A DNA stretch of 64,000 nt from Patescibacteria group bacterium (GCA_024239035.1 JANBVK010000001.1:235010-299009); one strand, 5' to 3'. Numbered from the stretch's first letter, positions 31,865 to 63,792 are shown. The notes: generated from the sequence alone by a model not told the origin. Made by a program: numbers and translations.

Positions 31865-31865
31865 A

Positions 31866-47184: not shown

Positions 47185-47565
47185 TTACTGGTATAAATCG
47201 TGAAGAATGCGGCAGGGTTCCACGATACGCGGGTTTGTAATTTTATAGTAGACGTTTAGTCCTTCACGTCGCGTCTTAACGAGTTTATTGTGACGAAGTA
47301 CTGCAAGGTGCTGAGAAACATTTGCCTTTTTAAGCTTGAGTATCCCGACAAGTTTTTCAACAGGGAGTTCACGCTTACTCAAAATATTCAAAATCTCAAG
47401 GCGCTTTGAATTTGCCATAATCTTATAGATCTCGGCGTTACGGAGGTAGGTTGCTTTTGGAAATGGCGATTTCATAGTTTCGAAACTATGCAATAAGTAT
47501 ATAATAATACGGGCATCCTTCAAGGGGGAGTTATCCACGTCCAACTCGGTGGGAATTATAGACAC
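47185..47565 (-). CDS. ArsR/SmtB-family HTH transcriptional regulator
   Basis: LEILNILSK...EKLVGILKLKKANVSQHLAVLRHNKLV is the ArsR winged-helix signature. Confidence 0.75.
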   Translation of the reverse strand: MSIIPTELDVDNSPLKDARIIIYLLHSFETMKSPFPKATYLRNAEIYKIMANSKRLEILNILSKRELPVEKLVGILKLKKANVSQHLAVLRHNKLVKTRREGLNVYYKITNPRIVEPCRILHDLYQ

Positions 47566-47585
47566 ACCAGGTTCATAATTGACAG

Positions 47586-48098
47586 GTGGGAGGAAGCGGT
47601 TACCATAAAGTTATGCAACTTAAAACAAAATACCTGAACGGTTTACTTATTTTTCTTATAGTTGTGGCAGTTGTTCTGGGGTACGCTATTTACAGCCAGT
47701 CGCCCGAAAAACCCGAGCTTAAAGCAGAAATATCGTCCTTGACCCCGACCCCCGACGAGTCCGAAGTTTTAAACGTTCCCGACCTTAATGCGTCCACTGA
47801 AGAAAAACAACGTCACTTTGAGCTTGTAGTGCAGGTTGCTAAAACCGCTGAATTCTTGGATATAAGCGATTGCAATCCATCACCGGTAGTAATGAAAATA
47901 AAAAAAGGAGAAACGATAGCTGTCAGAAACAATGACTCAGCCGATCACTCAATTGTGTTTAATTTAGAGAGCATACACCCCATCCCCGCAGGGAGCACAA
48001 AAAATATTACCAACGTCTTTGATAAGGGTCCGGGAGTTTACGGTTATGGGTGCGACGCATCAACCGGTGCTGTCGGTATGTTCTTAGTGACCGAATAG
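47586..48098 (+). CDS. Membrane-anchored plastocyanin-like cupredoxin-domain protein (family X, member 1)
   Basis: TM anchor, then VRNNDSADHSIVFNLESIHPIPAG ... GPGVYGYGCDASTGAVGMFLV, which aligns with plastocyanin [21 protein letters not shown] ... YSFYCSPHQGAGMVGKVTV. His, Cys and Met ligand positions are present; the second His is absent. Confidence 0.6.
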   Translation: MGGSGYHKVMQLKTKYLNGLLIFLIVVAVVLGYAIYSQSPEKPELKAEISSLTPTPDESEVLNVPDLNASTEEKQRHFELVVQVAKTAEFLDISDCNPSPVVMKIKKGETIAVRNNDSADHSIVFNLESIHPIPAGSTKNITNVFDKGPGVYGYGCDASTGAVGMFLVTE

Positions 48099-48117
48099 CT
48101 GATTTCTTTCTTGGTCT

Positions 48118-49371
48118 ATGAAATTTATTATCCCCAAAAAACCTCTTCTTTTGGTGCTCCTTGCCTTTCTTATTCTAGATGGCCTACTCTTGGTCTTCTT
48201 ACTTCAAGGAAAAGCGGAAATTCAAATCCCTAAAAACTTATCAGCAGCACTCACAAATTCCTACCCAGAAATAGCCGATCTCAAAGACAAACAACTGTCA
48301 TTTAAAGACCTATCCAACTATTTTAGCGATCTTGCCGAAGAAAAAGATGCAGTGTATGCCTACGAAGTGCTCAAGGTTGCACCAATCCCTCCCGGAATAG
48401 ATATGCATTTAATGGGGCATGTCGTTGGCGACATTCTTTACCGACAACAGGGTGTTCGGGGCATAGGTGTCTGTACCCACGATTTCCGGAACGCCTGTTC
48501 TCACAGCATCGTGGTGGGTCTGCTCCTTGAAGGTGGTGAGGGAGCCATACCCGAAATCACTGAAGCGTGCGGCGAAGCGCCTGGGGGAACCGGCGCCTAC
48601 TCAATGTGCTTTCACGGGCTTGGGCACGGAGTTTTAGCTTACGCCGATTATGATTTAGAAAAAGCCATTGAGCTTTGTAAAAAAACCGGCAGCGCAGAAT
48701 CCCCTCGCAGAGAACAAGTGGAATGCGTTGGTGGCACAATCATGGAGATAATTGGTGGTGGCTTCCACAACCCGAAACTATGGGCCGAGCAATCCAAAAA
48801 ATATCTTAGCGCTGATGATCCTCTCCACCCGTGCAGTAGCGACTTCATACCTGATATCGCCCGCCCTCAATGTTACATCTATCTTACTCCTCATCTCTTT
48901 AAAGTGGTTGGTGGAAGTCTTGGTAGTCCTACCCCGGAAGACTTTGAAAAAGCATTCCTTCTTTGTGAAAAAATTCCCGCCTCTGACACCGCTAGCCGCC
49001 ACACGTGCTACGGCGGTTTTGGAAAAGAATTTATAGTGCTCGCAAAAAACCGCGACATACGAAACATTGATAAGATGACAGACGAGGAGCTCGCAAAGGT
49101 GTATGAGTGGTGTCTTCTAGCGAAAAACCAGAACGGAATATTAGCGTGCGTCAACAGCGCCGCGGCCTCACTGTATTGGGGTGGTGAAAACGATCGCGGA
49201 ATTGTCATTAAATTCTGCGGATCATTGACAGAACCGAATATCCAAGCCTCCTGCTTTGCAAACATTATTGGAGGAGTTTCTTACTACATCAACGATCCTA
49301 CCTACAGACGCGGATTTTGTGAGGAGTTACCACCTACCTACCATGAAGACTGCCTTACCAGATTACTATAG
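48118..49371 (+). CDS. Secreted Cys/His-rich repeat protein, paralog B1 (417 aa)
   Basis: Signal/TM; repeated C-x-H-G-[LIV]-G-H-G and C-x-x-G-G motifs (MCFHGLGHGV; ECVGGTIMEI; TCYGGFGKEF); about 14 conserved Cys. Confidence 0.7.
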   Translation: MKFIIPKKPLLLVLLAFLILDGLLLVFLLQGKAEIQIPKNLSAALTNSYPEIADLKDKQLSFKDLSNYFSDLAEEKDAVYAYEVLKVAPIPPGIDMHLMGHVVGDILYRQQGVRGIGVCTHDFRNACSHSIVVGLLLEGGEGAIPEITEACGEAPGGTGAYSMCFHGLGHGVLAYADYDLEKAIELCKKTGSAESPRREQVECVGGTIMEIIGGGFHNPKLWAEQSKKYLSADDPLHPCSSDFIPDIARPQCYIYLTPHLFKVVGGSLGSPTPEDFEKAFLLCEKIPASDTASRHTCYGGFGKEFIVLAKNRDIRNIDKMTDEELAKVYEWCLLAKNQNGILACVNSAAASLYWGGENDRGIVIKFCGSLTEPNIQASCFANIIGGVSYYINDPTYRRGFCEELPPTYHEDCLTRLL

Positions 49372-49380
49372 CGAGATGTT

Positions 49381-50469
49381 ATGGACGTTATATTAAAAAA
49401 AATTAAAACAGCGCCAAAAGCTCCGTTTTTCCTCGGGGTTCTGGTCCTCGTCGCACTTATTGGGGGTGGCGGAACGTTCCTAAAAAATAAAAGTGGCAAC
49501 ACACCAGACCCGAATCTAACAAGCGCGATAAGCTCCGGTTTACGCACCACCGATCCAATAAAAGCTCGCAACTATTGGGCAGAACGCATTGATGCCGTAG
49601 GCGCTAAGCGTGCGTATGAAGAATTTAAAGAGACTTACTACAAGGAACACTTCGGTATCCAACATACTCTCGCCCACGTTATGGGGGAGCTGCTCTACGA
49701 AAAAGAAAGTGTTCAAGGGCTTACGGTATGCGACGCCACTTTCGCCTTTGGTTGCTATCACAGTTTCTTCGGGAGAGTATTGAGCGAACACGGAATCGCA
49801 ATCATACCCGAACTCGATAAGGCATGTGTCGAAAAGTTTGGACCCCTAGGAACAGGCTGCCAGCACGGTATCGGCCATGGATTAAGAGAATTTATGGGTA
49901 GTGAGAAACTAGTGGACGCTCTTGAGGCGTGCATCTTGACCACCCAACTAAAAGATTTGTTTGGTTGCACATCAGGCATCTTTATGGAAAACAACGTTCC
50001 TATAGTCATTAGCGCAGACAAACCGGCGTATACTGAACCACGAACCCTGAATCCAAATAATCCTTACGAACCGTGCAACACAATAGTACCGGAACAGTTC
50101 AGAAATTCGTGCTACTACGAAATGGCACAGTGGTGGAATCAGGTATTTAATCGCAACTGGGAAAAAATGGGGAGATTGTGCGAGGAGGTCGGCAACGAAG
50201 AATACACAAAGTCATGCTATTTTGGTATCGGCAATATTACCGCTCCCTCAAGCCAGTATGAAGTTGAGGCGACGATCAATAAGTGCAAACAAATGCCCTC
50301 CCGAGAAGCGGAGGTAACCTGCAGATCAGGAGCGTCGTGGAGTTTCTTTGCCGAACCGATTGCAAGAGACAAATCACCGGAGATATGTAAAGGGCTTGGA
50401 GCTGAAATAGAACAGAAGTGCGCGAAGGAATCCGACCTAATCGGCAACGGTGAAAAATTTATTCAATAA
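49381..50469 (+). CDS. Secreted Cys/His-rich repeat protein, paralog B2 (362 aa)
   Basis: Collinear with B1 (HTLAHVMGELLY; GCQHGIGHGL; NPYEPCNTIVPEQFRNSCYYE). Confidence 0.7.
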   Translation: MDVILKKIKTAPKAPFFLGVLVLVALIGGGGTFLKNKSGNTPDPNLTSAISSGLRTTDPIKARNYWAERIDAVGAKRAYEEFKETYYKEHFGIQHTLAHVMGELLYEKESVQGLTVCDATFAFGCYHSFFGRVLSEHGIAIIPELDKACVEKFGPLGTGCQHGIGHGLREFMGSEKLVDALEACILTTQLKDLFGCTSGIFMENNVPIVISADKPAYTEPRTLNPNNPYEPCNTIVPEQFRNSCYYEMAQWWNQVFNRNWEKMGRLCEEVGNEEYTKSCYFGIGNITAPSSQYEVEATINKCKQMPSREAEVTCRSGASWSFFAEPIARDKSPEICKGLGAEIEQKCAKESDLIGNGEKFIQ

Positions 50470-50478
50470 GTTTCTATT

Positions 50479-51690
50479 ATGGTGAAAAAAATTTTTATCG
50501 CGGCTCTGTTTGTAATAGTTCTTGCAGAAACTGCCGTACTCATAAAAGATAAACTACCACGCCTTACCGCGTCGCTCTTTCAATCCAGACAAGTTTCCTT
50601 TGAAGAGTATGCCGATCGCGTGGTTGAAAAATGTAAAGACGCGGGATATCGCCCGAGCTGCTACGATAAGGAGATTCCAGAACTTATGGATGCAATCTCA
50701 ATGGAGGATGCCTTTGAGGTTACAAGAATTGTCCAAGATCAAGATAGATCATACTACTATTGTCACGTACTCGGGCATGAATTAAGTGCTCGAGAGGTGC
50801 GCAAAGACCCGAGCAGTTGGAAGGATGTTGTTACACAATGCCCAAGCGGTATGTGCTCAAACGGCTGCCTCCACGGCGGGTTCCAAGAACGCTTCCGAGA
50901 AGGAGCCTTTACTGAAACCGAAGTGCGAGAGATCACCAAAGAACTCACCAACCTTTGTGAAGAAAAGCCTGCGTGGCGCCCCACCGGCCTTGAACAAGCT
51001 TCCTGCTACCATGCACTGGGACATCTCACGATGTATATCACGAGCGCCGAACTAAACAAATCATCAGAAATTTGCGAAGAGATTGCAGTAAAGCCGGATG
51101 GTAGAAATTACTCGCAACTTTGCTTTGACGGAGTATTTATGCAAATCTTCCAACCGCTCGAACCCGAGGACTTTGCGCTCGTTGAAGGAAAACAACCCAC
51201 AAAAGAGGAGGTACCTCTATTTTGCGGAAACTTCACAGGCAAAAAGAGAGCATCGTGTCTCAGCGAAAGTTGGCCGCTATTTTTTAAGGAGCTCAAAAAT
51301 CCCGAAAACTTAGTACGGTTTTGCTCAATGACCGAGGAGAGCGAACGGACAAGGTGTTATAACGTTATCTTCTATGTAATGACCGCCCAACTTGGCTTCA
51401 ATGTAGAGACACTACAAAATTATTGCGCGGGCTTGCCCAAGGAACGGCAGGGGTTGTGTTTCGCAAACGCTGCCTCTCGCATGATTGAAACTGACTACAG
51501 AAACATTGATAAGTCGGTACGCTTGTGCACCACCGCAGAAGATTACGATGCAGACGAAGAGTGTTTTGCAGAACTCTTACAGTATTCGACTTACAATTTC
51601 CATGCCGGATCAGAAGCGTTTTTCCGTCTCTGTAACAGTTTACCAGAGCCATGGAGCGAGAAATGCCTAAGTAAAAACACGGCCTCTTGA
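50479..51690 (+). CDS. Secreted Cys/His-rich repeat protein, paralog C1 (403 aa), with HExxH-like CHVLGHELS and CYHALGHL motifs
   Basis: Close paralog of 59901-61196 (for example FEEYADRVVEKCKDAGYRPSCYDKEIPELMD matches LEEHADRMIEKCKKAGSNQRCYDEEIPHLMD). Confidence 0.7.
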   Translation: MVKKIFIAALFVIVLAETAVLIKDKLPRLTASLFQSRQVSFEEYADRVVEKCKDAGYRPSCYDKEIPELMDAISMEDAFEVTRIVQDQDRSYYYCHVLGHELSAREVRKDPSSWKDVVTQCPSGMCSNGCLHGGFQERFREGAFTETEVREITKELTNLCEEKPAWRPTGLEQASCYHALGHLTMYITSAELNKSSEICEEIAVKPDGRNYSQLCFDGVFMQIFQPLEPEDFALVEGKQPTKEEVPLFCGNFTGKKRASCLSESWPLFFKELKNPENLVRFCSMTEESERTRCYNVIFYVMTAQLGFNVETLQNYCAGLPKERQGLCFANAASRMIETDYRNIDKSVRLCTTAEDYDADEECFAELLQYSTYNFHAGSEAFFRLCNSLPEPWSEKCLSKNTAS

Positions 51691-52169
51691 TAACGGTGTC
51701 GCATAACGTCTTCAAAATATTCCTCGTTGCTCTCTTCCTCCTCTATTTTTTAGGGAGTTTCTACACCTCCGGTACTCTTGAGGGAGAAGCGTATCCGTTC
51801 TTTTCCTGGTTTGTATTCACAAAAGTACCACCTAAATTTCAAGAAGGATACACAATAAGAATTCTCAAGTACGGAGACAAGCAATTACATTCGCCTGTCT
51901 CTTTTGAAGACGCCTACGATGTGTACATGAACAGAGGTATAGCCTCACCCCAATACAACTACATGATCAGGGCTTTGGGAACAAGCGTTGAAAATAAAGA
52001 CTTGAGAGAAATAAAACGACACCGCCACACACTAGAAGCAACCTTCCTGTCCCAGCCAGTTGTGTACGAGGTAGTAAAAATTAAATTTAGCACGCTTGAG
52101 CGCTGGAGAACAGGACAAGTACTCGAATCAAAAAGTATCGCCGTCTTCAATGTTCCAAAAGAACTATGA
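51687..52169 (+). CDS. Membrane-anchored hypothetical protein (160 aa), translationally coupled to the following membrane protein
   Basis: ATGA overlaps at both ends (51687/51690 and 52166/52169); N-terminal TM. Confidence 0.5.
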   Translation: MITVSHNVFKIFLVALFLLYFLGSFYTSGTLEGEAYPFFSWFVFTKVPPKFQEGYTIRILKYGDKQLHSPVSFEDAYDVYMNRGIASPQYNYMIRALGTSVENKDLREIKRHRHTLEATFLSQPVVYEVVKIKFSTLERWRTGQVLESKSIAVFNVPKEL

Positions 52170-53122
52170 AGTTGAACCAATCAATCAAAAATTTACGCGC
52201 GCTCGTCTCCTCTTTCCCGATGATTACATCTTTTGCCACAGGAAAACGGTCGCTCGAGAAAGCAAAAACCATTACCCGCTTTCTCTACTATTTCTTGGCG
52301 TTCCGATCTTTGTCCATACTGTTCGGTCGCGGGCAGTATGCTTCACAGGAAGGAAACTTCTCACCCATCTGGTCAATTAAATGGGCAGAGCTTCTAAATT
52401 TCCCTGACGTAATCAATATCATTGTTTTTTTCTTCCTCATCAGCGCGTTTGTGGGAGCACTTTTTAATCAGCTCCGCGTAGGTCGCGTTATAGCTTTCTT
52501 GGGAGTATTCCAACTGCATGCGTTCTTGAGTTCATTCATACAGGTTGACCATCAGTGGTACCCGTGGCTCTACGTCACGTTTTTGTTAATTTTTCTACCA
52601 GATGCTCCTGCACAAGAATACTCCTTTGAAAAACGCAAGAAGTTTTTATTAGTTTTTTTTGGTGCCCAAGCTGCTATATTCACGATCTATTCAATGGCAG
52701 GTTTTGGCAAGACGTACGGTGCAATCGAGCAGTTTCTGCAAGGAGGGGTCCACGCATTCGCACCCGAGGCTCTCGCGCTTCATATCGCACATTGGCTAGT
52801 GGCAAATAATTCAACAAGTCTGGTAGGATCTTTTATAATTGCGCACCCCTTAGTGGGATGGCCCTTTTTTGTCGGCAGTATTTACCTACTACTCTTCTCG
52901 TTGTGGGCTGTTTTCAAACCGTCTCTCCATAGATTGTGGGCATTTGGATTACTGCTCTACCATATAGGAGTGTATGCGGCCATGAACATAAGTTTCTTGG
53001 GATCCCCGCTGCTTTTACTGCTTTTGTTCTTCGACTCGCCATTTAAAAAACGGGGCGTAAAGTGGAAAGAAATAATTCTAGATTTACCACTCTTCGGGTG
53101 GCTATTGCGCCGCCTTAATTGA
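52166..53122 (+). CDS. Polytopic membrane protein (318 aa), HTTM-like
   Basis: 8-9 predicted TM helices, Trp/His-rich loops; embedded in the Cys-rich paralog locus. Confidence 0.4.
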   Translation: MKLNQSIKNLRALVSSFPMITSFATGKRSLEKAKTITRFLYYFLAFRSLSILFGRGQYASQEGNFSPIWSIKWAELLNFPDVINIIVFFFLISAFVGALFNQLRVGRVIAFLGVFQLHAFLSSFIQVDHQWYPWLYVTFLLIFLPDAPAQEYSFEKRKKFLLVFFGAQAAIFTIYSMAGFGKTYGAIEQFLQGGVHAFAPEALALHIAHWLVANNSTSLVGSFIIAHPLVGWPFFVGSIYLLLFSLWAVFKPSLHRLWAFGLLLYHIGVYAAMNISFLGSPLLLLLLFFDSPFKKRGVKWKEIILDLPLFGWLLRRLN

Positions 53123-53139
53123 TTCGAAAGAAAAACGTG

Positions 53140-53264
53140 CTAAAATCAATACGCAGCATTTTATGACCAAGCGTTCTAACGTCGTTCTTACAGCACTCAC
53201 TACGTCAATCTTCCTGGGAGCACTATTCTCTCCCACAACACCCACGCACGCACATGGAGTCTGA
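53140..53264 (+). pseudogene. Duplicated 5' fragment (promoter-proximal 25 nt plus first 33 codons) of gene 56388-56930
   Basis: AATACGCAGCATTTTATGACCAAGCGTTCTAACGTCGTTCTTACAGCACTCACTACGTCAATCTTCCTGGGAGCACTATTCTCTCCCACAAC... is near-identical to 56360-56470. It encodes MTKRSNVVLTALTTSIFLGALFSPTTPTHAHGV and then a stop. Confidence 0.7.
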
Positions 53265-53268
53265 CACA

Positions 53269-53615: not shown

Positions 53616-53617
53616 AA

Positions 53618-56337: not shown

Positions 56338-56387
56338 AATCGGTGTGTTAAAATCAGTATACGCAGCATTTAATCCTCTTTCAATTT

Positions 56388-56930: not shown

Positions 56931-58425
56931 AAAAGCGCTAATCTTCTTACCACTCCTCGTTCTTACTATTGGCGGTTCCATTACTTACCGTGAGCTCCGA
57001 GTATCGGACACAGAGCCCGCACGGATGGCGAGCGAATACGTCGTAGAACTTCACGAAGACGGTTTCCACCCAGAGAAAATTACCATCCAGAAAGGTGCGG
57101 TGGTGACTTTCATAACCACAAGAAACAAAGATTTCTGGCCAGCATCAAACCTCCATCCCACCCACATTATCTACAGAGAGTTCGATCCCAAAAAAGCAAT
57201 CGCGCCTGACAATTCCTGGAACTTCACGTTTAATAAAACCGGTGAGTGGAGATATCACGACCACACTGCCCCCTATTTTACAGGAACAATAATTGTCGAA
57301 GAGCACGACCACGACAAAACCCACGTTCATCATCTCGACACCGCAGAAAACATTGATTGCAGTAAATTGGATGCTCTCAACGACTACGAGAAAGAAAAAT
57401 GCTGGGATAAAGTCCTGGGCGAGGCGCTCAGGGAAAAAGGGGTAGAAGGATCTCTCGAGGCGTTTAGACAACTCTACACCACCCAACCTAATTTTGCCCA
57501 AAGTGGATGTCACTGGTATGCGCACCGTATCGGTGAAGAAGCCTACGGATACTATAGAGGCGGCGAAGATCTCGATCTTCCGCAAGAAGTGAGCTACTGC
57601 GGCTATGGTTTTGTACACGGTTTCTTAGAGCACGGTTTCAGGGAAGAAAGAAATCCAACCGAGGCAAAGAGGCTGTGCAACTACCTCGACACCCAACTAT
57701 CAGATATCCTCCCAAGAATTCGATTAAATTGTTTCCACGCAATAGGTCACGGGTTCATAGATGATCCACCAAATCCAAGAATATGGGGAAATTCTCAAGC
57801 TATAATAGGGCCGGCGCTAAAAATCTGTGAAAGCGTTTCCGACGTACCAATCGAAGTCAAAGAATGTTTTGATGGGGCATACAACACTCTAGTAATCTTT
57901 ATGCAAACGAACCAGTATGGGTTGTCATTCGATAAAAAAGATCCACTCGGTTTCTGTCATAATGAACCTGACCGTTACCAACTCTCATGTTATTATGAGT
58001 TTGCCCAAGTGCTCGACTCCGCAGGTGACCGGGATCTCGCGACAATTGCAAAATTCGTTGAAGGCATTCCCGAAGATACGCTTGCAGGTATGATTATCAA
58101 CACCGCAGCTGCAGGTGTGGTGCAGGGAGATATCACAAACGATGACTTCACAAACTATATCCTTGAGTGCCGAAAAACAGGAGAACGCCTGCGCCTGCAG
58201 TGCATACGAGGCGTAGTAGGGGGACTTCTCGCCCACGGTGAACCGGGAAAAGAGTACATCAAAGCTCTGAAGTTATGTGATGCCGGTCTACTCCTTGAAG
58301 ACGAGCACAAAGCGTGCTTCCATAACACTCTAAATGGAATCAAGACTATCTATCCCCGCGAGAAAGTAGAACAAATTTGCAAAACAATTGATGAGAAATA
58401 CCAAAGCTACTGCACCTATCAATAA
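56923..58425 (+). CDS. Secreted cupredoxin-like domain plus Cys/His-rich repeat protein, paralog A1 (500 aa)
   Basis: N-terminal domain VVELHEDGFHPEKITIQKGAVVTFITTRNKDFWPASNLHPTH...GEWRYHDHTAPYFTGTIIV, then the shared Cys/His repeat region (NCFHAIGHGF). Confidence 0.7.
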   Translation: MGKKALIFLPLLVLTIGGSITYRELRVSDTEPARMASEYVVELHEDGFHPEKITIQKGAVVTFITTRNKDFWPASNLHPTHIIYREFDPKKAIAPDNSWNFTFNKTGEWRYHDHTAPYFTGTIIVEEHDHDKTHVHHLDTAENIDCSKLDALNDYEKEKCWDKVLGEALREKGVEGSLEAFRQLYTTQPNFAQSGCHWYAHRIGEEAYGYYRGGEDLDLPQEVSYCGYGFVHGFLEHGFREERNPTEAKRLCNYLDTQLSDILPRIRLNCFHAIGHGFIDDPPNPRIWGNSQAIIGPALKICESVSDVPIEVKECFDGAYNTLVIFMQTNQYGLSFDKKDPLGFCHNEPDRYQLSCYYEFAQVLDSAGDRDLATIAKFVEGIPEDTLAGMIINTAAAGVVQGDITNDDFTNYILECRKTGERLRLQCIRGVVGGLLAHGEPGKEYIKALKLCDAGLLLEDEHKACFHNTLNGIKTIYPREKVEQICKTIDEKYQSYCTYQ

Positions 58426-58428
58426 AAA

Positions 58429-59904
58429 ATGAGCAACCAGACAAAAAGGCTATCCCTATTTATTTTGATCGTACTCGTTGCAAGCGCTGTTGGTTTCCTG
58501 CTCTATAAAAGAGCACAACTCGGTGCAAGTCTCCTTCCTGCCGCAGGATCAGAACACGTCGTCGAGCTTCGAGAAGACGGATTTCATCCCGAAGAACTTA
58601 CCATACATAAAGGGGATACCGTCACCTTCGTTACCAAAAACAGTAATTATTTCTGGCCTGCCTCCAATCTCCACCCCACCCACACTATTTACCCCGAATT
58701 CGATCCGGAGGAACCAATTGCGCCCGACGAACGCTGGGGTTTTCGTTTTAAAAAACCGGGAGAATGGAAATATCACGACCATCTCGCTCCCTACTTCACG
58801 GGAAAAATAACGGTTATAGATGGCTCTCAAGCGCGTGCCGCCCAAAGTAAATGCAAAGACGACAAAAACTCGTTCGAGTGCTGGCAAGAAATTCTCCTCA
58901 CCACGCTCGATAAAAAGGGGGTTGAGGCAACCTTCGACCGCTTGGCCGAACTCTATGTAAGTGAATCTTATTTTCCACTAGCCTGCCACTATCTTACTCA
59001 TAATATCGGTATTGCTGCTTATAAACACTACCTCAAAGACAAAGATTCGGTCTTAACCCCAAAGGCTGCGTACTGCGCAAACGGTTTCTACCACGGATTT
59101 ATGGAAGCGTTCCTTACCGTAACGAAAGATCCCGAAAAAGCAAAAGCATTTTGCATATACGTGGATAGTAAGCTTACCAAAGACGCACCGGATGCGGCGC
59201 TTCAGTGCTATCACGGGGTCGGCCACGGCGCAATTGAAACGACGCTTGCGAGGTGGACAAGACCCGACGGGGGGGAAGATGAGATGGTGAAACCCGCGCT
59301 CGAGATATGCGAGGCTATCTCTGATGCACCGGAAGAACTCTACCGCTGCACTTCAGGCGTGTTCAACACCATTGCAAATTTCTACACCAGCGGTGGGTTT
59401 GGACTCACCGCGAATATGGAAAATCCTCTTTGGCTCTGCGATAAACAACCCGACGAGTACAAACTAAGCTGCTATGGCAACATGAACACAGTACTTCGAT
59501 GGATCGCCGGAGAGGATTTTCAAAAAGCTGCCCGGTTTATCGAGCAAATCCCCGACAGAGCATATACTGCCCCTGCCCTACGCTACCTTGCAAACATGTA
59601 CACACTGTTTCTTGCTCGAGGTAACTACACGGGGGCGGTAGAGAACTGCCGCGCGCTTGATAAGTCGTTGCATGTCTCTTGTATTGAGGGATTCGCGCAC
59701 GGATTCCTTGAGCAGGGAGTGCCGGGAGAAGAGTACATCGAAGCATTCGCGTTCTGTAGAGCAGATGCGCTCTCTGAAGAAGAGCGTGAGATATGCTTCA
59801 AGTATGCATTAAATCTTGATGGTTGGTATGATAAAGAGAAAGTAAAAGAAATTTGCAAAACAGTGGAGGAGGACTACAGACAATATTGCATCATTAAAAA
59901 GTGA
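58429..59904 (+). CDS. Secreted cupredoxin-like domain plus Cys/His-rich repeat protein, paralog A2 (491 aa)
   Basis: VVELREDGFHPEELTIHKGDTVTFVTKNSNYFWPASNLHPTH...GEWKYHDHLAPYFTGKITV; QCYHGVGHGA. Confidence 0.7.
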   Translation: MSNQTKRLSLFILIVLVASAVGFLLYKRAQLGASLLPAAGSEHVVELREDGFHPEELTIHKGDTVTFVTKNSNYFWPASNLHPTHTIYPEFDPEEPIAPDERWGFRFKKPGEWKYHDHLAPYFTGKITVIDGSQARAAQSKCKDDKNSFECWQEILLTTLDKKGVEATFDRLAELYVSESYFPLACHYLTHNIGIAAYKHYLKDKDSVLTPKAAYCANGFYHGFMEAFLTVTKDPEKAKAFCIYVDSKLTKDAPDAALQCYHGVGHGAIETTLARWTRPDGGEDEMVKPALEICEAISDAPEELYRCTSGVFNTIANFYTSGGFGLTANMENPLWLCDKQPDEYKLSCYGNMNTVLRWIAGEDFQKAARFIEQIPDRAYTAPALRYLANMYTLFLARGNYTGAVENCRALDKSLHVSCIEGFAHGFLEQGVPGEEYIEAFAFCRADALSEEEREICFKYALNLDGWYDKEKVKEICKTVEEDYRQYCIIKK

Positions 59905-61196
59905 TTAAATTCCATAAACATTTTCGTTTCTTCCTCGCCGTTACCCTTATTTTAGGTGCGGGAATGCTATTTCTTGCCTTTTTTAATCAACACCCCAAGG
60001 AAATATTAGCGTCTCTTTTCACAAGTAACAAAACCGTATCGCTTGAAGAACATGCCGACCGAATGATAGAAAAATGTAAAAAGGCTGGTTCAAACCAGCG
60101 GTGCTACGACGAGGAAATCCCCCACCTAATGGATTTCATCTCGATGAAGGAAGCATTCGAAGTAACAAAAATTATCCAAGAAAAAGATCCTACGTATTGG
60201 TTCTGCCATGAGCTCGGGCACAACTTGAGTGAAAAAGAGTATGCGAAAGATCCGGCAAAGTGGAAAGATGTGGTAACAAGCTGCCCGGTGGGGATGTGCT
60301 CAAACGGATGTGTCCACGGCGCAATCCAAAGGCATTTCATTGCAGCATCACTCGACAACACCCAGCTACAAGAATTACTGCCTGTCGTAGAGAGCTTGTG
60401 CGAGAGACGAACGAATTGGAACCCAACTCCGCTCGAGCAGGCAAGTTGCTACCACGAACTCGGCCACCTCTCGCACTACCTCACCGATACCAACATTCCC
60501 AAATCGAAGGAGCTGTGCGACACGATCGCATTAAAAGAAGACGGGAGAAATTACCTGCAAACATGCTACGAAGGGATGTTTATGCAGTTATTTGAACCTC
60601 GTGAGCCAGAGGACTTCGCCCTGATTTATAATATTGTCCCCTATAAGGAAAAATTGGGTGTGTGCGAACAGTACACAAGCGGGGTAGAAAAAGGAGCGTG
60701 CTGGAAGATAGGGTGGTTAGGAAAAGAAAAAGAGTTTTGCAACCAATTTACTGGAGAAATTCGCGGCGCATGCTTCCGTGAGGCATGGGTAATACAGGAC
60801 GAGAAGATAGAAACTCCCGAAGGGATCGTAGAGTATTGTAACTACTCCGATGATCCAACAGAGAAAAGAAAATGCTACAACAAGCTCTACTATTCCCTAA
60901 TGGCGAAGTTCGAATTTGATGAGGAACGGATGAAACCAATATGCATGGGGTTACCTCGTGCGCTGCAGGGTCAGTGCTTTGCAAACACGGCCTCCCGAAT
61001 GATCGAAACTGATAAACGCTTGGTTGAGAAAGCGCTTTCTATGTGCGCGTTTGCCGCAACACTCGGTGTAGAGCGCGAATGCTACGGAGAACTCGCTCAT
61101 TACGCTACATTTGCCCTCCATGCTCAATCGGACGAATCCCTCAGTTTGTGCAACAGTCTCCCCGAACCATGGAGCACAAGTTGTTTATCTCGTTAG
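59901..61196 (+). CDS. Secreted Cys/His-rich repeat protein, paralog C2 (431 aa), HExxH-like CHELGHNLS
   Basis: Close paralog of 50479-51690; ATGA overlap with the upstream gene. Confidence 0.7.
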   Translation: MIKFHKHFRFFLAVTLILGAGMLFLAFFNQHPKEILASLFTSNKTVSLEEHADRMIEKCKKAGSNQRCYDEEIPHLMDFISMKEAFEVTKIIQEKDPTYWFCHELGHNLSEKEYAKDPAKWKDVVTSCPVGMCSNGCVHGAIQRHFIAASLDNTQLQELLPVVESLCERRTNWNPTPLEQASCYHELGHLSHYLTDTNIPKSKELCDTIALKEDGRNYLQTCYEGMFMQLFEPREPEDFALIYNIVPYKEKLGVCEQYTSGVEKGACWKIGWLGKEKEFCNQFTGEIRGACFREAWVIQDEKIETPEGIVEYCNYSDDPTEKRKCYNKLYYSLMAKFEFDEERMKPICMGLPRALQGQCFANTASRMIETDKRLVEKALSMCAFAATLGVERECYGELAHYATFALHAQSDESLSLCNSLPEPWSTSCLSR

Positions 61197-61233
61197 AAAT
61201 TAAGCAGTTCGTCAAAGTATAATAATCACAACA

Positions 61234-62724
61234 ATGAGAAAAAAAGCAATTACTCTTCTGGTTACGTTCGTGCTCCTCATCACTGGTACACTCATCTATC
61301 GAACTAATCAACTACCAGCTCAGCTTGTCAGGGATGGGGGAAACACCCCACAGACAATATCCGGAAAAGAACACATAATTGAGCTTCGTGAGGGGGGCCT
61401 GTCCCCAGAAGAGATTACCGTACAGAAAGGCGACACAATAATCTTTGCAAACGCTAGCGACGAGCCGTTCTGGCCCGCGAGTGACCCACATCCTACACAT
61501 CAATTCCTATCCGGGTTTGACCAAGGACATGCGATAGACAGCGGCTCCAGTTGGAATTACACATTTTATGAACCAGGAATATGGTACTACCATGACCACC
61601 TCAACTTAACTCTGAAGGGCAAAATAACAGTTGTAGACAGTAGCAACTTAGAAAAACCCACTGGCGAACTCGACTGCGAGTACGGCAGCGAAAACGAAAA
61701 AGCACGGTGTTTTGACGAACGGATAAAAACCGCAGTAAAGGTTGAGGGGGTTGGTGCTGCATTTAAGCTCTTCGCCAAACTTTACGAGAGCGGGTCAGCT
61801 CCCGAGAGCTGCCACTGGACCGGACACCTGATCGGAGAAGAAGCTTACCACGAATATAAGCAAGGAAAAGACGTGCCCGTAACTTCTGAGGCTAACTATT
61901 GCGGCTATGCATTCTACCATGGTTTCTTGGAAACCCTCTTGAGAGACAATCCGGACATCGAATGGGCTCGTTCATTCTGTAAGTATGTGCTCGAAAAAGT
62001 CGGGCCCGATGCACAAGATAACTGTTTCCATGGGATTGGACACGGATTCACTGAAGACCCACCCGACCCTCGCCTTCATGGAAATGCCAGAGGCTATCTC
62101 AAGCCTGGGTTAGAGGTCTGTGAATATCTCTACGGGGATACAGAAAATAAGTGGGAGATATGCGCAACGGGTGTCTACACTGTCCTTGCTGGGTTTATGT
62201 GGGATGGAAAGTATGAGTTCTCGCTTGATCCTAAAGATCCTTTCGCGTTCTGCCGCGCGCAACCGGAACGCTACCACATCGCGTGCTACGGGGAGTTTGC
62301 GCCGCGGCTTGACAGTGCAACCAACTGGGACGTATCCAAGCTCCCACAGCACATTAAGAACATTGACAACCCGGATCTAAGAAAATTTGTCGTCAGGGTC
62401 GCAGCAGGAGTGATGATGCAACGAGACATTGCAAAATATGACCTCACAAACTACATCCAAGGTTGTCGGACGTTAAAAGGGAATCTCCCACTCGCATGTC
62501 TCGGAGGCGTTTCGTGGGGATTGGTAATGAGCAGCGAACCAGGGAGAGAACATGTGTATGCGTTGAGGTTCTGCGGGTCAGGGACACTCAATGAAGAGGA
62601 ACGCGGGACATGTTACAGAGAAGCGCTCCTACAACTCAAACGCTCCCTCACACCCGAGAAACTAAAGCCCGTCTGTGAGAGCGTCGATGAAAAGTACAGA
62701 ACGTACTGCATTAAGAATCCATAG
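61234..62724 (+). CDS. Secreted cupredoxin-like domain plus Cys/His-rich repeat protein, paralog A3 (496 aa)
   Basis: IIELREGGLSPEEITVQKGDTIIFANASDEPFWPASDPHPTH...GIWYYHDHLNLTLKGKITV; NCFHGIGHGF. Confidence 0.7.
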   Translation: MRKKAITLLVTFVLLITGTLIYRTNQLPAQLVRDGGNTPQTISGKEHIIELREGGLSPEEITVQKGDTIIFANASDEPFWPASDPHPTHQFLSGFDQGHAIDSGSSWNYTFYEPGIWYYHDHLNLTLKGKITVVDSSNLEKPTGELDCEYGSENEKARCFDERIKTAVKVEGVGAAFKLFAKLYESGSAPESCHWTGHLIGEEAYHEYKQGKDVPVTSEANYCGYAFYHGFLETLLRDNPDIEWARSFCKYVLEKVGPDAQDNCFHGIGHGFTEDPPDPRLHGNARGYLKPGLEVCEYLYGDTENKWEICATGVYTVLAGFMWDGKYEFSLDPKDPFAFCRAQPERYHIACYGEFAPRLDSATNWDVSKLPQHIKNIDNPDLRKFVVRVAAGVMMQRDIAKYDLTNYIQGCRTLKGNLPLACLGGVSWGLVMSSEPGREHVYALRFCGSGTLNEEERGTCYREALLQLKRSLTPEKLKPVCESVDEKYRTYCIKNP

Positions 62725-62749
62725 AATAAAGATATGATATAATTATGCT

Positions 62750-63214
62750 ATGCAGGGTAAGGTTGTGATTACTATTTTCGTGCTATTAGCTGTTGGGGTA
62801 GGATATACCCTCTGGAGAAACGGAACCCCTTCATGGCTCTCCTTTAGTACCTTAAGTGATAAAGAGGCATTATTTATCAGCCTCCCTACAAGCACCTCAA
62901 CACAGGAAGAGGTAAGACGCCACCGTGAACTCGCGGGAAAACTTGCCGAAGACGGCAACGAAATAAATATCGCCGGATGTATACCCGACCCACCCGTGCT
63001 CAGAGTAAAAAGAGGTGATAATATAACTTTTATAAACAACTCTCAGGAAGAAGTTCGCTTGCAAATCGGTAACGTTGGCATCTTTAGTGTTCAACTGGAA
63101 GATACGCTTGTTGAGAGGGCAGAATTCGGTACAACAGGCGAAGCCCTAGTCGCTTATCTGTGCCACAGCGGTGATTCATCAGAGAGAGATTTTGGATTTA
63201 TTTTAATACAATAA
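62750..63214 (+). CDS. Membrane-anchored cupredoxin-like protein (family X, member 2)
   Basis: TM, then IPDPPVLRVKRGDNITFINNSQ...ALVAYLCHSGDSS...FGFILI, a cupredoxin-like beta pattern with Cys-His. Confidence 0.5.
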   Translation: MQGKVVITIFVLLAVGVGYTLWRNGTPSWLSFSTLSDKEALFISLPTSTSTQEEVRRHRELAGKLAEDGNEINIAGCIPDPPVLRVKRGDNITFINNSQEEVRLQIGNVGIFSVQLEDTLVERAEFGTTGEALVAYLCHSGDSSERDFGFILIQ

Positions 63215-63244
63215 AAGAAAGGTCGTTGTGCTATAATAAGACAT

Positions 63245-63739
63245 ATGAAAAACAAACTTACCCTTATTGTTATTCTCTTAATAGTAGCCGTCGTCATAAG
63301 CTATCTCGTTTACAGCTCGGGTGCACCGCAACCAGCAGAACAAGAATCACCCATACAACAGTTAACATTAACAACAGAAGAGAAGAAAGCAATTTTAAAC
63401 TTTCCTGCGGCTGATGCATCGGAAGGAGAACAACAAAGGTACTTTGAACTTGCAGAGAGGCTTGCGCAACAATCCGGGGTCTTGGACGTCACAAACTGCA
63501 ACCTACAGCCATTGGTACTAAACGCAGATTTGAAAAGTGACATAATACTAAAAAACACAAGCGACTACGATATCACGCTAGATATTGAAAACGAAAGCAA
63601 CACCGTCCCCGCAAATCAAGAGGTGGTTATAAAAGTTGACTTCGGCAAGGGAGGAGGACTCTACGGCTACGGATGCAACTCCGCTAATCCAGATGGGAGC
63701 AGCTCTGGTTCCGGGCTTATCCTCGTAGGAGCCGAATAA
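63245..63739 (+). CDS. Membrane-anchored plastocyanin-like protein (family X, member 3), paralog of 47586-48098
   Basis: RYFELAERLAQQSGVLDVTNCNLQPLVL...GLYGYGCNSAN..GSGLILV aligns with RHFELVVQVAKTAEFLDISDCNPSPVVM...GVYGYGCDAS..GMFLV. Confidence 0.6.
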   Translation: MKNKLTLIVILLIVAVVISYLVYSSGAPQPAEQESPIQQLTLTTEEKKAILNFPAADASEGEQQRYFELAERLAQQSGVLDVTNCNLQPLVLNADLKSDIILKNTSDYDITLDIENESNTVPANQEVVIKVDFGKGGGLYGYGCNSANPDGSSSGSGLILVGAE

Positions 63740-63752
63740 GAAAATTGCTCGA

Positions 63753-63792
63753 TATAAAAACCACCCCGACATCACGTCGAGGTGGTTTTTTA
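63753..63792 (+). terminator. Rho-independent terminator ending the plus-strand locus
   Basis: CCACCCCGACatcacGTCGAGGTGG followed by TTTTTT. Confidence 0.7.

What the first reader, a model, noticed from the sequence alone, without database searches (positions are those of the whole stretch)
47185..63792. 16 kb plus-strand locus: tandem array of seven paralogous secreted Cys/His-rich repeat proteins, three with N-terminal cupredoxin-like domains
Seven large ORFs share one collinear architecture of repeated roughly 45-55-aa units.

- They are 48118-49371, 49381-50469, 50479-51690, 56923-58425, 58429-59904, 59901-61196 and 61234-62724.
- The units carry conserved Cys and a recurring C-x-H-[GAE]-[LIV]-G-H-G element: MCFHGLGHGV, GCQHGIGHGL, SCYHALGHLT, NCFHAIGHGF, QCYHGVGHGA, SCYHELGHLS, NCFHGIGHGF.
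- They fall into three subfamilies, in the order B1-B2-C1 ... A1-A2-C2-A3, which implies a segmental duplication of an [A, C] unit.
- The A members carry an extra roughly 100-aa N-terminal domain with a cupredoxin-like beta pattern and His clusters (HPTH, YHDH).
- Several genes are translationally coupled through ATGA overlaps.

The locus is preceded by an ArsR/SmtB-type regulator, which is typically metal-responsive, and is flanked by small anchored plastocyanin-like proteins. I do not recognise the Cys/His repeat domain as a described family. The combination suggests an extracellular metal (possibly copper) binding or redox system, or a diversifying surface-protein family.
Basis: partly seen in the sequence, partly recalled or inferred. 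Interest (0 to 1): 0.9.

Follow-up and report, generated by a model that had tools for sequence, protein, structure and literature searches.

The report
Undescribed His-cluster surface protein family
This Patescibacteria locus encodes seven copies of a very large, unannotated family of membrane-anchored, probably disulfide-braced helical proteins that all keep the same five-histidine cluster, most likely a metal-binding site. No protein-family database, solved structure or paper that I could find describes this family.

Summary
Seven co-directional ORFs at the stated coordinates are true paralogs in three old subfamilies (A, B, C), and the A members carry a real cupredoxin domain.

- **Size and spread:** 6,995 representatives at the 50% identity level, nearly all from Patescibacteria. 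The genes typically sit in arrays of 3-12 paralogs.
- **Conserved core:** all five His are present in 730 of 749 domains. Coevolution and joint-loss patterns place them on three stacked helices as a triad plus a pair. The Cys behave as 7-9 disulfide pairs rather than metal ligands.
- **Cupredoxin domain:** it lacks the blue-copper Cys (replaced by Asp) and instead has four invariant His.
- **Array partner:** a small protein with a conserved predicted N-terminal His and a C-terminal anchor, the same layout as YcnI.
- **Best reading (inferred, about 50%):** a cell-surface metal-binding or redox system, with copper the favoured metal.
- **Not supported:** a conserved ArsR link, the HTTM assignment, recent duplication, or surface diversification.

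The parts
47185..47565 (-). ArsR-family HTH regulator, divergent from the array. It is probably a local regulator, but it is not a conserved partner of the family.
   Evidence: Pfam HTH_5 E = 1.9e-9. It has no ortholog near the family in any of 80 related loci. Reading its sequence shows no alpha3 CXC motif and no alpha5 DxH...HxxE motif.
47586..48098 (+). s170: a small N-terminally anchored protein with a marginal cupredoxin-like signal and two conserved Cys. It is the first gene of sub-array 1.
   Evidence: Cupredoxin_1 E = 0.0023, below the gathering cutoff. Present in 30 of 80 related loci, usually just upstream of the B1 ortholog. C96, P100, N115, C156 and G164 are conserved and there is no copper ligand set.
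48118..49371 (+). B1: family member with an N-terminal anchor and a ~330-aa Cys/His helical body. It belongs to the most conserved orthologous group.
   Evidence: Orthologs are 50-68% identical. The AlphaFold2 model has pLDDT 93.4 and is all-alpha. There is no Pfam, NCBIfam or PDB match.
48403..48630 (+). Region of B1 (residues 96-171) that carries the invariant His cluster: H97, H101, H129, H166 and H170, with C127, C164 and G169.
   Evidence: All five His are present in 730 of 749 domains. The pairs H101-H170, H101-H166 and H97-H129 rank among the top coevolution couplings.
49381..50469 (+). B2: family member without a cupredoxin domain.
   Evidence: 27% identical to B1, E about 1e-21 to 1e-24. 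It shares the invariant Cys/His columns.
50479..51690 (+). C1: family member of subfamily C.
   Evidence: 45% identical to C2 (1e-141) and 53% identical to the C-type ortholog in L001.
51687..52169 (+). p160: a small anchored protein. Its ORF overlaps the C1 stop by 4 nt.
   Evidence: TTGA overlap and one N-terminal hydrophobic segment. Orthologs occur in L003 and in 7 of 80 loci, always together with m318. No Pfam hit.
52166..53122 (+). m318: a polytopic membrane protein with about 5-7 hydrophobic segments. It overlaps p160 by ATGA. It is not detectably HTTM.
   Evidence: Hydrophobic segments and junction. No HTTM hit at E <= 1. No similarity to the L003 HTTM protein. 42% identical to an L003 ortholog and present in 9 of 80 loci.
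56388..56930 (+). s180: signal peptide, then a predicted mature N-terminal His, an Ig-like beta domain and a C-terminal TM anchor. It is the first gene of sub-array 2 and overlaps A1 by 8 nt.
   Evidence: A30 is nearly invariant; H31, D47 and W82 are invariant and E38 nearly so in 20 aligned orthologs. Present in 27 of 80 loci, usually adjacent to the array. Only weak filamin/Ig-like matches and no YcnI match, even with a profile.
56923..58425 (+). A1: family member with an N-terminal Cupredoxin_1 domain followed by the Cys/His body.
   Evidence: Pfam PF13473 E = 3e-7, 30.8 bits against a cutoff of 27. 39% identical to A2.
58429..59904 (+). A2: family member with an N-terminal Cupredoxin_1 domain followed by the Cys/His body.
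58552..58821 (+). Cupredoxin domain of A2 (residues 42-131), with invariant H82, H85, H116 and H118 and nearly invariant D117. The domain contains no Cys.
   Evidence: Invariant columns in 79 A-type sequences. In the alignment to amicyanin the ligand Cys92 falls on D117, Met98 on Phe and His53 on H82.
59901..61196 (+). C2: family member of subfamily C. It overlaps the A2 stop by 4 nt (GTGA).
61234..62724 (+). A3: family member with a more diverged N-terminal cupredoxin domain.
   Evidence: PF13473 E = 0.0019, below the cutoff. 35-37% identical to A1 and A2 over the full length. The cupredoxin His motifs are conserved.
62750..63214 (+). s154: a small anchored protein of the s170 type.
   Evidence: Its tblastn hit falls on an s170-type gene in L003 and L004. 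One N-terminal hydrophobic segment. No Pfam family.
63245..63739 (+). s164: a small anchored protein of the s170 type.
   Evidence: Its hits fall on the s170-type genes in related loci, and it is found in 27 of 80 loci.

Best explanation
The locus is one example of a conserved Patescibacteria gene array. It encodes a large, previously undescribed family of extracytoplasmic proteins tethered by an N-terminal hydrophobic helix.

**Shown**
- Each ~330-aa body is an alpha-solenoid.
- Its Cys residues occur as co-varying pairs, as 7-9 disulfides would.
- Five essentially invariant His sit on three consecutive, parallel-stacked helices. They split into a triad (H101, H166, H170) and a pair (H97, H129).

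**Inferred**
- The His cluster is a metal site, possibly binuclear, because H97 and H101 lie one helical turn apart and belong to different subsets.
- In the A subfamily a Cupredoxin_1 domain precedes the body. Its blue-copper Cys is replaced by Asp, and four invariant His form what looks like a second, non-blue metal site. This gives an overall layout like EfeO: a cupredoxin domain followed by a helical metal-binding domain.
- A co-transcribed small protein, s180, has a conserved predicted N-terminal His and a C-terminal anchor, the same layout as the copper-binding protein YcnI.
- I therefore propose that the array forms a cell-surface system that captures a transition metal and may redox-process it. 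Copper is favoured, and iron or zinc are not excluded.
- The diverged A, B and C paralogs would act as non-redundant components, not as antigenic variants.
For: **Family and fold**
- The family is real and large: 6,995 representatives at E <= 1e-3 and 1,803 at E <= 1e-30. B1 orthologs were confirmed in 154 stretches of species-representative genomes, of which the best 80 were examined.
- There is no known family or fold match.
- The models are high-confidence and all-alpha.

**His cluster and Cys pairs**
- All five His are present in 730 of 749 domains, and in nearly every module of the 3-7-module giant proteins.
- Coevolution couples equivalent positions of successive units: M96-C127, H97-H129, S128-M163, G167-G205 and L173-M209. 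It also ranks H101-H170 and H101-H166 5th and 7th overall.
- Eleven variants, in six different residue patterns, lose H101, H166 and H170 together while keeping H97 and H129. Those examined are A-type and keep the cupredoxin His motifs.
- Cys pairs are gained and lost together: 283/297 has phi 0.97; C164 pairs with column 151 or 144; C127 pairs with C96 or C119/122.

**Cupredoxin domain and neighbours**
- The fold is confirmed and is nearest to cupredoxins, including a copper-bound Cupredoxin_1 protein, EfeO and FtrB. The His set replaces the Cys/Met ligands.
- s180 conserves its predicted N-terminal His, and its layout matches YcnI (PMC8424229).
- The arrays and their gene order are conserved across genomes.
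Against: - No metal has been demonstrated. I could not read model coordinates, so the clustering of the His rests on coevolution and joint loss. In near-invariant columns that signal comes from few sequences and could partly reflect shared ancestry.
- No carboxylate or sixth ligand is universally conserved. Position 105 is D/E in only about half of domains, and position 209 is Met or Asn.
- Alpha-solenoids are typically binding scaffolds. Some relatives are fused to a GH3 glycosidase, an esterase or FG-GAP repeats. Three to seven modules per polypeptide fit binding or scaffolding at least as well as catalysis.
- The copper-specific hints are indirect. s180 gave no DUF1775/YcnI match at E <= 1 (Pfam) or E <= 10 (PDB profile). 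The small s170-type proteins lack ligands. The ArsR neighbour is not conserved. The window contains no recognisable cuproenzyme or metal transporter.
Confidence: 0.5

Rival explanations
1. The proteins are a structural or adhesive surface scaffold. The solenoids would be binding modules that build a cell-surface layer or mediate attachment to a host cell. The His cluster would be a purely structural feature, for example a zinc or hydrogen-bond staple, with no role in metal handling.
For: - The fold class is that of HEAT/ARM/TPR-type scaffolds.
- Giant relatives string 3-7 modules in front of a GH3 glycosidase, and other relatives carry an esterase domain or FG-GAP repeats.
- Some arrays lie next to type IV pilus clusters.
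- All members are membrane-anchored and probably disulfide-stabilised.
Against: - Binding surfaces usually vary, whereas here five His and several Gly are about 99% conserved among domains only about 20% identical.
- B1 orthologs are 50-68% identical across lineages, which is unlike adhesins.
- Pilus genes are nearby in only 4 of 80 loci.
- The recurrent fusion to a His-rich cupredoxin domain is hard to explain for a pure scaffold: roughly 240 of 749 domains show its motifs.
Confidence: 0.25
2. The body is an extracytoplasmic enzyme, a metal-dependent hydrolase or oxidase acting on envelope or host glycans or lipids. The His cluster would be its catalytic centre, and the paralogs would have different substrate specificities.
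For: - An invariant polar cluster on a rigid scaffold is typical of an active site.
- Relatives are fused to, or neighbour, a GH3 glycosidase, an Abhydrolase_2 esterase, a GDSL esterase, a carbamoyltransferase, glycosyltransferases and PMT_2 envelope enzymes.
Against: - There is no similarity to any enzyme fold or motif.
- No conserved acid/base residue accompanies the His.
- Up to six intact modules on one polypeptide is unusual for a catalytic domain.
- The neighbouring enzymes are not conserved: the carbamoyltransferase occurs in 1 of 80 loci and the GDSL esterase in 2 of 80.
Confidence: 0.12
3. The A-type proteins and the small flanking proteins are plastocyanin-type blue-copper electron carriers, for example feeding NirK as assumed for cupredoxins of candidate phyla radiation (CPR) bacteria. 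Alternatively, the array is a rapidly diversifying surface-antigen family created by recent segmental duplication.
For: - The cupredoxin fold is confirmed.
- JGI names some homologs 'plastocyanin'.
- Papers on these bacteria treat single cupredoxin proteins as electron carriers to NirK (PMC5581439 and PMC12931201).
Against: - The type-1 ligand Cys is absent (Asp117 in its place), Met is replaced by Phe, and the domain has no Cys at all.
- Blue-copper equivalog models score 11.6-15.3 bits against cutoffs of 88-110.
- The s170-type proteins have no ligand set.
- The paralogs are older than the divergence of these genomes, and the gene order is conserved, so the array is neither recent nor diversifying.
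Confidence: 0.04

Closest known systems
EfeO / FtrB (Cupredoxin_1 domain proteins of iron-uptake systems; EfeO = cupredoxin domain plus helical M75 metal-binding domain)
   Same: - That domain is followed by an all-helical domain with conserved metal-type ligands.
- Both are extracytoplasmic.
   Different: - The ligand set is His-only.
- No Ftr1/EfeU-type permease or EfeB was recognised in the locus.
- Most family members (types B and C) have no cupredoxin domain at all.
Blue copper proteins (plastocyanin, amicyanin, purple cupredoxin 5fc9)
   Different: - The Cys ligand is replaced by Asp and the Met by Phe.
- There are extra invariant His (H85, H116, H118).
- NCBIfam equivalog scores are far below their cutoffs.
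- The domain is fused to a 350-aa helical body and a membrane anchor.
YcnI (DUF1775) copper-binding protein of Bacillus subtilis
   Same: s180 has the same layout: a signal peptide, a conserved His predicted to become the mature N-terminus, a beta-sandwich domain and a C-terminal TM helix. It also conserves an acidic residue and a Trp (YcnI facts from PMC8424229).
   Different: No sequence relationship could be detected: Pfam gives no DUF1775 hit at E <= 1, and a 20-sequence profile finds no YcnI chain in the PDB at E <= 10. No CopC/CopD partner was recognised. Copper binding has not been tested.
Sel1-like / Helicobacter cysteine-rich proteins, and HEAT/ARM/TPR solenoids
   Same: They share the helical-repeat solenoid architecture. 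As I recall for the Helicobacter Hcp proteins (own knowledge, not checked here), disulfides staple adjacent helices. The best structural neighbours are designed or natural helical repeat proteins.
   Different: - There is no Sel1, TPR or HEAT Pfam hit at E <= 1.
- The units are irregular (31-50 aa), with only weak internal sequence repeats.
- The invariant five-His cluster has no counterpart in those families.
Hemerythrin-like and type-3 copper four-helix-bundle metal centres (comparison from my own knowledge)
   Same: Metal ligands come as HxxxH pairs on adjacent helices, and the count of five His split 3 + 2 resembles the hemerythrin di-iron ligand set. A Cys two residues before a ligand His (C-x-H) also occurs in some type-3 copper proteins.
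   Different: - This is a resemblance only. These proteins do not appear among the listed best matches of either structure search.
- No conserved bridging carboxylates are present.
- The C-x-H Cys here have disulfide partners.
- The site geometry could not be measured.

Membership tests
Cupredoxin_1 (Pfam PF13473) | Sequence match above the Pfam gathering score | tested here: met
   A1 scores 30.8 bits and A2 31.8 bits against a cutoff of 27. A3 scores 18.6 bits, below the cutoff, but it aligns along its full length with A1 and A2.
Cupredoxin_1 (Pfam PF13473) | Cupredoxin beta-sandwich fold | tested here: met
   [not shown]
Type-1 blue copper proteins (plastocyanin / amicyanin / pseudoazurin) | Ligand set His...Cys-x(n)-His-x(n)-Met | tested here: not met
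   In the HMMER alignment to amicyanin, Cys92 aligns to D117, His95 to Ala and Met98 to Phe; only His53 is kept, as H82. No Cys is conserved in the domain across 79 sequences.
Type-1 blue copper proteins (plastocyanin / amicyanin / pseudoazurin) | NCBIfam equivalog score above the cutoff | tested here: not met
   Scores are 11.6-15.3 bits against cutoffs of 87.85-110.2.
EfeO | C-terminal Peptidase_M75 / imelysin-like domain | tested here: not met
   [not shown]
Sel1 / TPR / HEAT repeat families | Pfam repeat profile match | tested here: not met
   There are no such hits at E <= 1 for any of the seven paralogs. The precomputed Pfam field shows no such family for any of the listed homologs, only '-' or PF13473.
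Sel1 / TPR / HEAT repeat families | Close structural superposition on a member | tested here: not met
   [not shown]
YcnI / DUF1775 (tested for s180) | Sequence match to DUF1775 or to YcnI structures | tested here: not met
   Pfam lists no DUF1775 hit at E <= 1. A single sequence and a 20-ortholog profile searched against the PDB give only weak filamin/Ig-like matches.
YcnI / DUF1775 (tested for s180) | Signal peptide followed by a conserved His as mature N-terminus, plus a C-terminal TM helix | tested here: met
   A30 is nearly invariant and H31 invariant in the ortholog alignment, and there are hydrophobic segments at both ends. The cleavage site is predicted, not shown.
YcnI / DUF1775 (tested for s180) | Binds Cu(II) through the N-terminal His | not testable with these tools
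   This needs purified protein with a native N-terminus, analysed by EPR or ICP-MS.
ArsR/SmtB metal-sensing repressors (47185-47565) | HTH_5 winged-helix domain | tested here: met
   Pfam PF01022 E = 1.9e-9.
ArsR/SmtB metal-sensing repressors (47185-47565) | Known metal-site motifs (alpha3 CXC, or alpha5 DxH...HxxE) | tested here: not met
   By direct reading of the translation there is a single Cys near the C-terminus, no CXC motif and no alpha5 His/Asp/Glu set. The motif definitions come from my own knowledge.
HTTM / vitamin K carboxylase-like membrane domain (tested for m318) | Pfam PF05090 match or similarity to a true HTTM protein | tested here: not met
   There is no HTTM hit at E <= 1. 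BLASTP against the PF05090-positive protein of L003 gives E = 3.3.

The most novel reading that the evidence does not exclude
The five-His cluster is a new kind of binuclear (3 + 2 His) metal centre built on a disulfide-braced solenoid. Together with the non-blue cupredoxin domain and the s180 protein with its predicted N-terminal His, the arrays would form an extracellular metal-acquisition or oxidoreductase machine specific to Patescibacteria. That would be a major, so far unseen part of how these ultra-small bacteria, which lack electron-transport chains, deal with metals or oxygen at their surface.
Probability: 0.25. Interest if true: 0.85.

Novelty: categorically new. Interest (0 to 1): 0.72.

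Why it matters
- **Scale of the gap:** Patescibacteria make up a large share of bacterial diversity, and most of their conserved genes have no assigned function. This family has about 7,000 clusters at 50% identity, sits in conserved arrays of 3-12 genes per genome, and is absent from Pfam, NCBIfam and the PDB. It is therefore one of the larger unannotated protein families of the phylum.
- **A testable hypothesis:** the invariant, rigidly held His cluster and the recurrent fusion to a His-rich cupredoxin domain suggest metal binding at the cell surface. That can be tested directly on recombinant ectodomains.
- **A practical correction:** proteins annotated as 'cupredoxin' or 'plastocyanin' in these genomes, which published metabolic reconstructions treat as electron carriers to NirK, include members of this family. 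These lack the blue-copper Cys ligand and should not be counted as such carriers.

Tried and rejected
- **AlphaFold database search:** the afdb50 library was not available, so predicted-structure relatives could not be surveyed.
- **Model coordinates:** they are not exposed, so His-His and Cys-Cys distances could not be measured. I substituted mean-field coevolution analysis and co-occurrence statistics.
- **HTTM lead for m318:** rejected. There is no Pfam hit and no similarity to a real HTTM neighbour, and the L003-type HTTM protein is found in none of 80 loci.
- **YcnI membership of s180:** rejected at the sequence level. Only the shared layout remains.
- **Type IV pilus linkage:** seen in the first two contexts but it does not generalise (PilB in 4 of 80 loci).
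- **ArsR linkage:** 0 of 80 loci.
- **Promoter and terminator scan:** counts are at the shuffle background (27 vs 24.6; 20 vs 18.6), so the scan does not define operons.
- **Sel1/TPR/peptidase identity and low-complexity artefact:** both rejected.
- **Literature:** five full-text searches found no description of the family. A Yanofskybacteria transcriptome paper does not mention it.
- **dN/dS among paralogs:** not run. At 20-45% protein identity synonymous sites are saturated, so the result would not be informative. Comparing orthologs with paralogs answers the diversification question instead.

Full report
**1. What is in the sequence**

I name them B1 (48118-49371), B2 (49381-50469), C1 (50479-51690), A1 (56923-58425), A2 (58429-59904), C2 (59901-61196) and A3 (61234-62724).

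- **Paralogy.** Within subfamilies, A1/A2/A3 are 35-39% identical (E about 1e-100 to 1e-124), C1/C2 45% (1e-141) and B1/B2 27% (1e-21 to 1e-24). Between subfamilies E-values are mostly 1e-4 to 1e-13, with A1-B1 the weakest at 0.05. The best E among 140 shuffled queries was 0.008. The similarity is therefore real and not compositional.
- **Invariant columns.** The seven-way alignment has 19 invariant columns, 16 of them Cys or His.
- **Topology.** Each protein has one N-terminal hydrophobic segment, modelled as a long helix. The bodies are therefore extracytoplasmic, either anchored or secreted.
- **Operon structure.** The array is split by a carbamoyltransferase (53618-55330) and a minus-strand GDSL esterase (55267-56337). 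Gene junctions suggest two operons: s170-B1-B2-C1-p160-m318 and s180-A1-A2-C2, followed by A3, s154 and s164. True 4-nt overlaps occur at C1/p160, p160/m318 and A2/C2, and s180/A1 overlaps by 8 nt. The promoter and terminator scan was at background level.
- **Wider context.** The rest of the window is ordinary housekeeping: CTP synthase, FtsZ/FtsA, HisRS, an ABC transporter and a DNA methyltransferase. The window comes from a 729-kb contig of a Patescibacteria metagenome-assembled genome. NCBI names the proteins 'hypothetical protein' or 'cupredoxin domain-containing protein'.

**2. Identity of the Cys/His body**

- None of the seven bodies matches a Pfam family; the only hit at E <= 1 is one chance-level match (E = 0.084) on C1. 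NCBIfam gives nothing on the body either.
- Profiles of the paralogs and of 86 B1-type sequences find nothing credible among PDB sequences.
- An AlphaFold2 model of B1 built on 86 sequences is confident (pLDDT 93.4, pTM 0.87) and all-alpha, with 19 helices.
- Foldseek gives no hit at E <= 1e-3 and TM-scores of at most 0.25. All its hits are generic HEAT/ARM/TPR-type solenoids.

The body is therefore an alpha-solenoid-class domain with no specific known relative.

**3. Size and distribution**

- An exhaustive HMMER search of 1.84 billion cluster representatives finds 6,995 proteins at E <= 1e-3, 5,482 at 1e-10 and 1,803 at 1e-30. Some are giants with up to seven modules.
- The word-indexed searches return only unnamed or 'hypothetical' proteins from Patescibacteria lineages such as Kaiser-, Sung-, Colwell-, Nomura- and Spechtbacteria.
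- A scan of one genome per species confirmed B1 relatives in 154 stretches, and the best 80 loci were kept. Informative labels are almost all Paceibacteria/Parcubacteria or Microgenomates lineages. A few automated labels (Gammaproteobacteria, Saccharibacteria, Bacteroidetes, Acidimicrobiales, Nanoarchaeia) are probably unreliable.
- Within 10 kb of the B1 ortholog those loci carry 1-12 family genes, most often 4-5. Nearly all are co-directional, and A, B and C types occur together in 45 of 80 loci. The order s170-B-B-C-A-A recurs, for example in L007.
- Orthologs in other genomes are closer than the in-window paralogs: B1 57-68% vs 27% to B2, A2 66% vs 39% to A1, and C1 53% vs 45% to C2.

The array is therefore ancient and conserved. 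It is not a recent segmental duplication, and it is not a diversifying antigen family.

**4. Anatomy of the conserved core**

- **Histidines.** H97, H101, H129, H166 and H170 (B1 numbering) are all present in 730 of 749 domains. G169 and G206 are conserved in more than 99% (a 420-domain subset agrees).
- **Cysteines.** C164, C187, C203, C239, C252, C332, C344, C367 and C379 are conserved in at least 99% of domains.
- **Disulfide pattern.** The variable Cys come and go in pairs. For 283/297, both are present in 406 domains, both absent in 332 and discordant in 11 (phi 0.97). For 401/412 phi is 0.76. C164 always has a partner, at column 151 (51%, B/C types) or column 144 (46%, A types). C127 pairs with C96 (C127 present in all 477 domains that have C96) or with C119/C122. 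Cys counts are even (16 in B1). This is the pattern expected for 7-9 structural disulfides, not for thiolate ligands.
- **Coevolution.** Mean-field direct-coupling analysis (effective sequence number 712) gives top couplings that link equivalent positions of successive units: M96-C127, H97-H129, D105-G134, S128-M163, G167-G205, L173-M209, A174-E210 and G205-Q251. The motif-bearing helices therefore stack in parallel, as in a solenoid. H101-H170 and H101-H166 rank 5th and 7th of all pairs.
- **Joint loss.** Those couplings arise from rare joint losses. Eleven domains, in six different residue patterns, have lost H101, H166 and H170 together while keeping H97 and H129. The ten I examined individually are all A-type proteins; all keep the first cupredoxin His motif, and all but one also match the second.
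- **Internal repeats.** Profile self-comparison shows only weak sequence repeats: residues 120-297 vs 245-412 at E = 7e-6, and the two HxxxH helices at E = 0.07.

The cluster therefore splits into a triad (H101, H166, H170) and a pair (H97, H129), on three adjacent helices that are cross-linked by the C96-C127 and C144/151-C164 pairs.

**5. The cupredoxin domain and the small partners**

- **Not a blue-copper site.** Seventy-nine A-type sequences conserve W76-P-A-S-x-x-H82-P-x-H85 and H116-D117-H118, with no Cys. In the HMMER alignment to amicyanin the ligand Cys92 falls on D117, Met98 on Phe and His53 on H82. Blue-copper equivalog models score 11.6-15.3 bits against cutoffs of 88-110.
- **Consequence for annotation.** The domain has a cupredoxin fold with a His-rich site, so it is not a plastocyanin. 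This matters because papers on these bacteria treat 'cupredoxin/plastocyanin' genes as electron carriers to NirK (PMC5581439 and PMC12931201), and JGI names some A-type homologs 'plastocyanin'.
- **s170, s154 and s164.** These small proteins are related to each other. Only s170 has even a marginal cupredoxin signal. Their orthologs conserve two Cys and no copper ligand set.
- **s180 (56388-56930).** This is more interesting. Its orthologs conserve Ala-His at the end of the signal peptide (A30 93%, H31 96% of 28 sequences; H31 invariant in a 20-sequence alignment), together with E38, D47 and W82, and they end in a TM helix. It occurs in 27 of 80 loci, usually directly next to the array. This is the layout of B. 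subtilis YcnI, which binds Cu(II) through its N-terminal His, a Glu and a nearby Trp (PMC8424229). No sequence relationship to DUF1775/YcnI is detectable, even with a profile.

**6. Other context**

- The ArsR-family gene is real. It is not found near the family in any of 80 loci, and by reading its sequence it lacks the known metal-site motifs.
- m318 is not detectably HTTM. With p160 it forms a conserved overlapping pair seen in 7-9 of 80 loci.
- Type IV pilus genes flank the array in the first two loci examined but only in 4 of 80 overall.
- Domain fusions in relatives include Cupredoxin_1 (several), a GH3 glycosidase with LRV/HEAT repeats after seven modules, an Abhydrolase_2 esterase, and FG-GAP repeats.
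- In the giant proteins nearly every module keeps all five His and the invariant Cys.

**7. Interpretation**

- **Shown:** a very large, undescribed family largely confined to Patescibacteria; an extracytoplasmic, anchored topology; a solenoid body whose Cys behave as disulfide pairs; a rigid five-His cluster that is essentially invariant and splits 3 + 2; a non-blue, His-rich cupredoxin domain in one subfamily; and conserved multi-paralog arrays with an s180 partner.
- **Inferred:** the His cluster binds one or two transition-metal ions. H97 and H101 are one helical turn apart and belong to different subsets, which is the geometry of a binuclear site. The array would act at the cell surface in metal capture or redox handling. 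I favour copper because of the cupredoxin fold, the all-nitrogen ligand sets and the s180 layout. Iron (by analogy with EfeO and FtrB) and zinc are not excluded.
- **Confidence:** about 0.5 for this reading as a whole and about 0.3 for copper specifically.
- **Main rival (0.25):** a binding or scaffolding surface protein in which the His are structural. The fold class and the multi-module fusions to hydrolases favour this reading. The extreme conservation of the His and Gly, and the cupredoxin fusions, argue against it.
- **Other rivals:** a catalytic role (0.12) has no supporting fold or acid/base residues. The blue-copper electron-carrier and diversifying-antigen readings are contradicted by the ligand and orthology analyses.

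**8. Novelty and limits**

I found no database family, solved structure or paper describing this domain. The nearest comparisons are resemblances of layout or fold class only, and each fails a membership test. They are EfeO, YcnI, Sel1-like disulfide-stapled repeats, and hemerythrin-like or type-3-copper HxxxH centres.

The main weaknesses are these:
- I could not read model coordinates.
- The coevolution signal among near-invariant columns rests on few sequences.
- No experiment links the family to any metal.

Noticed in passing
window 56388-56930 (+): s180 is a 180-aa protein whose orthologs conserve Ala-His at the predicted signal-peptide cleavage site, so the mature protein would begin with His. 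They also conserve E38, D47 and W82 and end in a TM helix. This is the layout of the copper-binding protein YcnI, but no sequence relationship is detectable.
   Followed up: yes
window 45948-47165 (-): u405 is a 405-aa N-terminally anchored protein with a Cys-rich C-terminal half and no Pfam match. A relative lies next to the family array in 17 of 80 related loci, so it may be a further member of the system.
   Followed up: partly
window 51687-53122 (+): p160 and m318 are an overlapping (ATGA) gene pair: a small anchored protein plus a polytopic membrane protein. The pair is conserved in 7-9 of 80 related loci. m318 is not detectably HTTM. It could be a membrane partner or permease of the system.
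   Followed up: partly
window 53618-56337: A NodU/CmcH-type carbamoyltransferase (+) and a GDSL esterase (-) split the array in two. They are not conserved neighbours (1 and 2 of 80 loci). Related loci instead carry GT2/methyltransferase and PMT_2 envelope-glycosylation genes.
   Followed up: partly
window 43525-45957 (-): Two exported-looking proteins without any Pfam match lie in the most GC-rich stretch of the window (0.526 against about 0.44). This may be foreign DNA.
   Followed up: no
window 28000-34000: This is a low-GC stretch (0.37) containing a D12-class N6-adenine DNA methyltransferase (30509-31864, -) directly followed by a 505-aa protein with no Pfam match (31866-33383, -). It may be a restriction-modification or defence island.
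   Followed up: no
P0238 (3580 aa), P0239, P0240, P0242, P0245, P0252 (database proteins): These giant relatives carry 3-7 tandem copies of the module, nearly all with an intact five-His cluster. P0238 ends in a GH3 glycosidase plus LRV/HEAT repeats, and P0252 carries FG-GAP repeats.
   Followed up: partly
P0141, P0184, P0232 (database proteins); PMC5581439, PMC12931201: JGI names some A-type homologs 'plastocyanin', and metabolic reconstructions of these bacteria use such annotations as electron carriers to NirK. The A-type cupredoxin domain lacks the Cys ligand, so such calls may be wrong where they rest on members of this family.
   Followed up: partly
L008 (DATBWR010000009.1, labelled Candidatus Nanoarchaeia): A contig assigned to a DPANN archaeon carries the same B-B-C array with s170-type and PMT_2 neighbours as the Patescibacteria loci. 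This is either a binning or labelling error or a transfer between the two groups of ultra-small organisms.
   Followed up: no
L001 1-9334, L003 147-9433: In two related genomes the array starts immediately downstream of a complete type IV pilus cluster (PilM/O, PilB, PilT, PilC, several pilins and the prepilin peptidase). This adjacency does not generalise (4 of 80 loci).
   Followed up: yes
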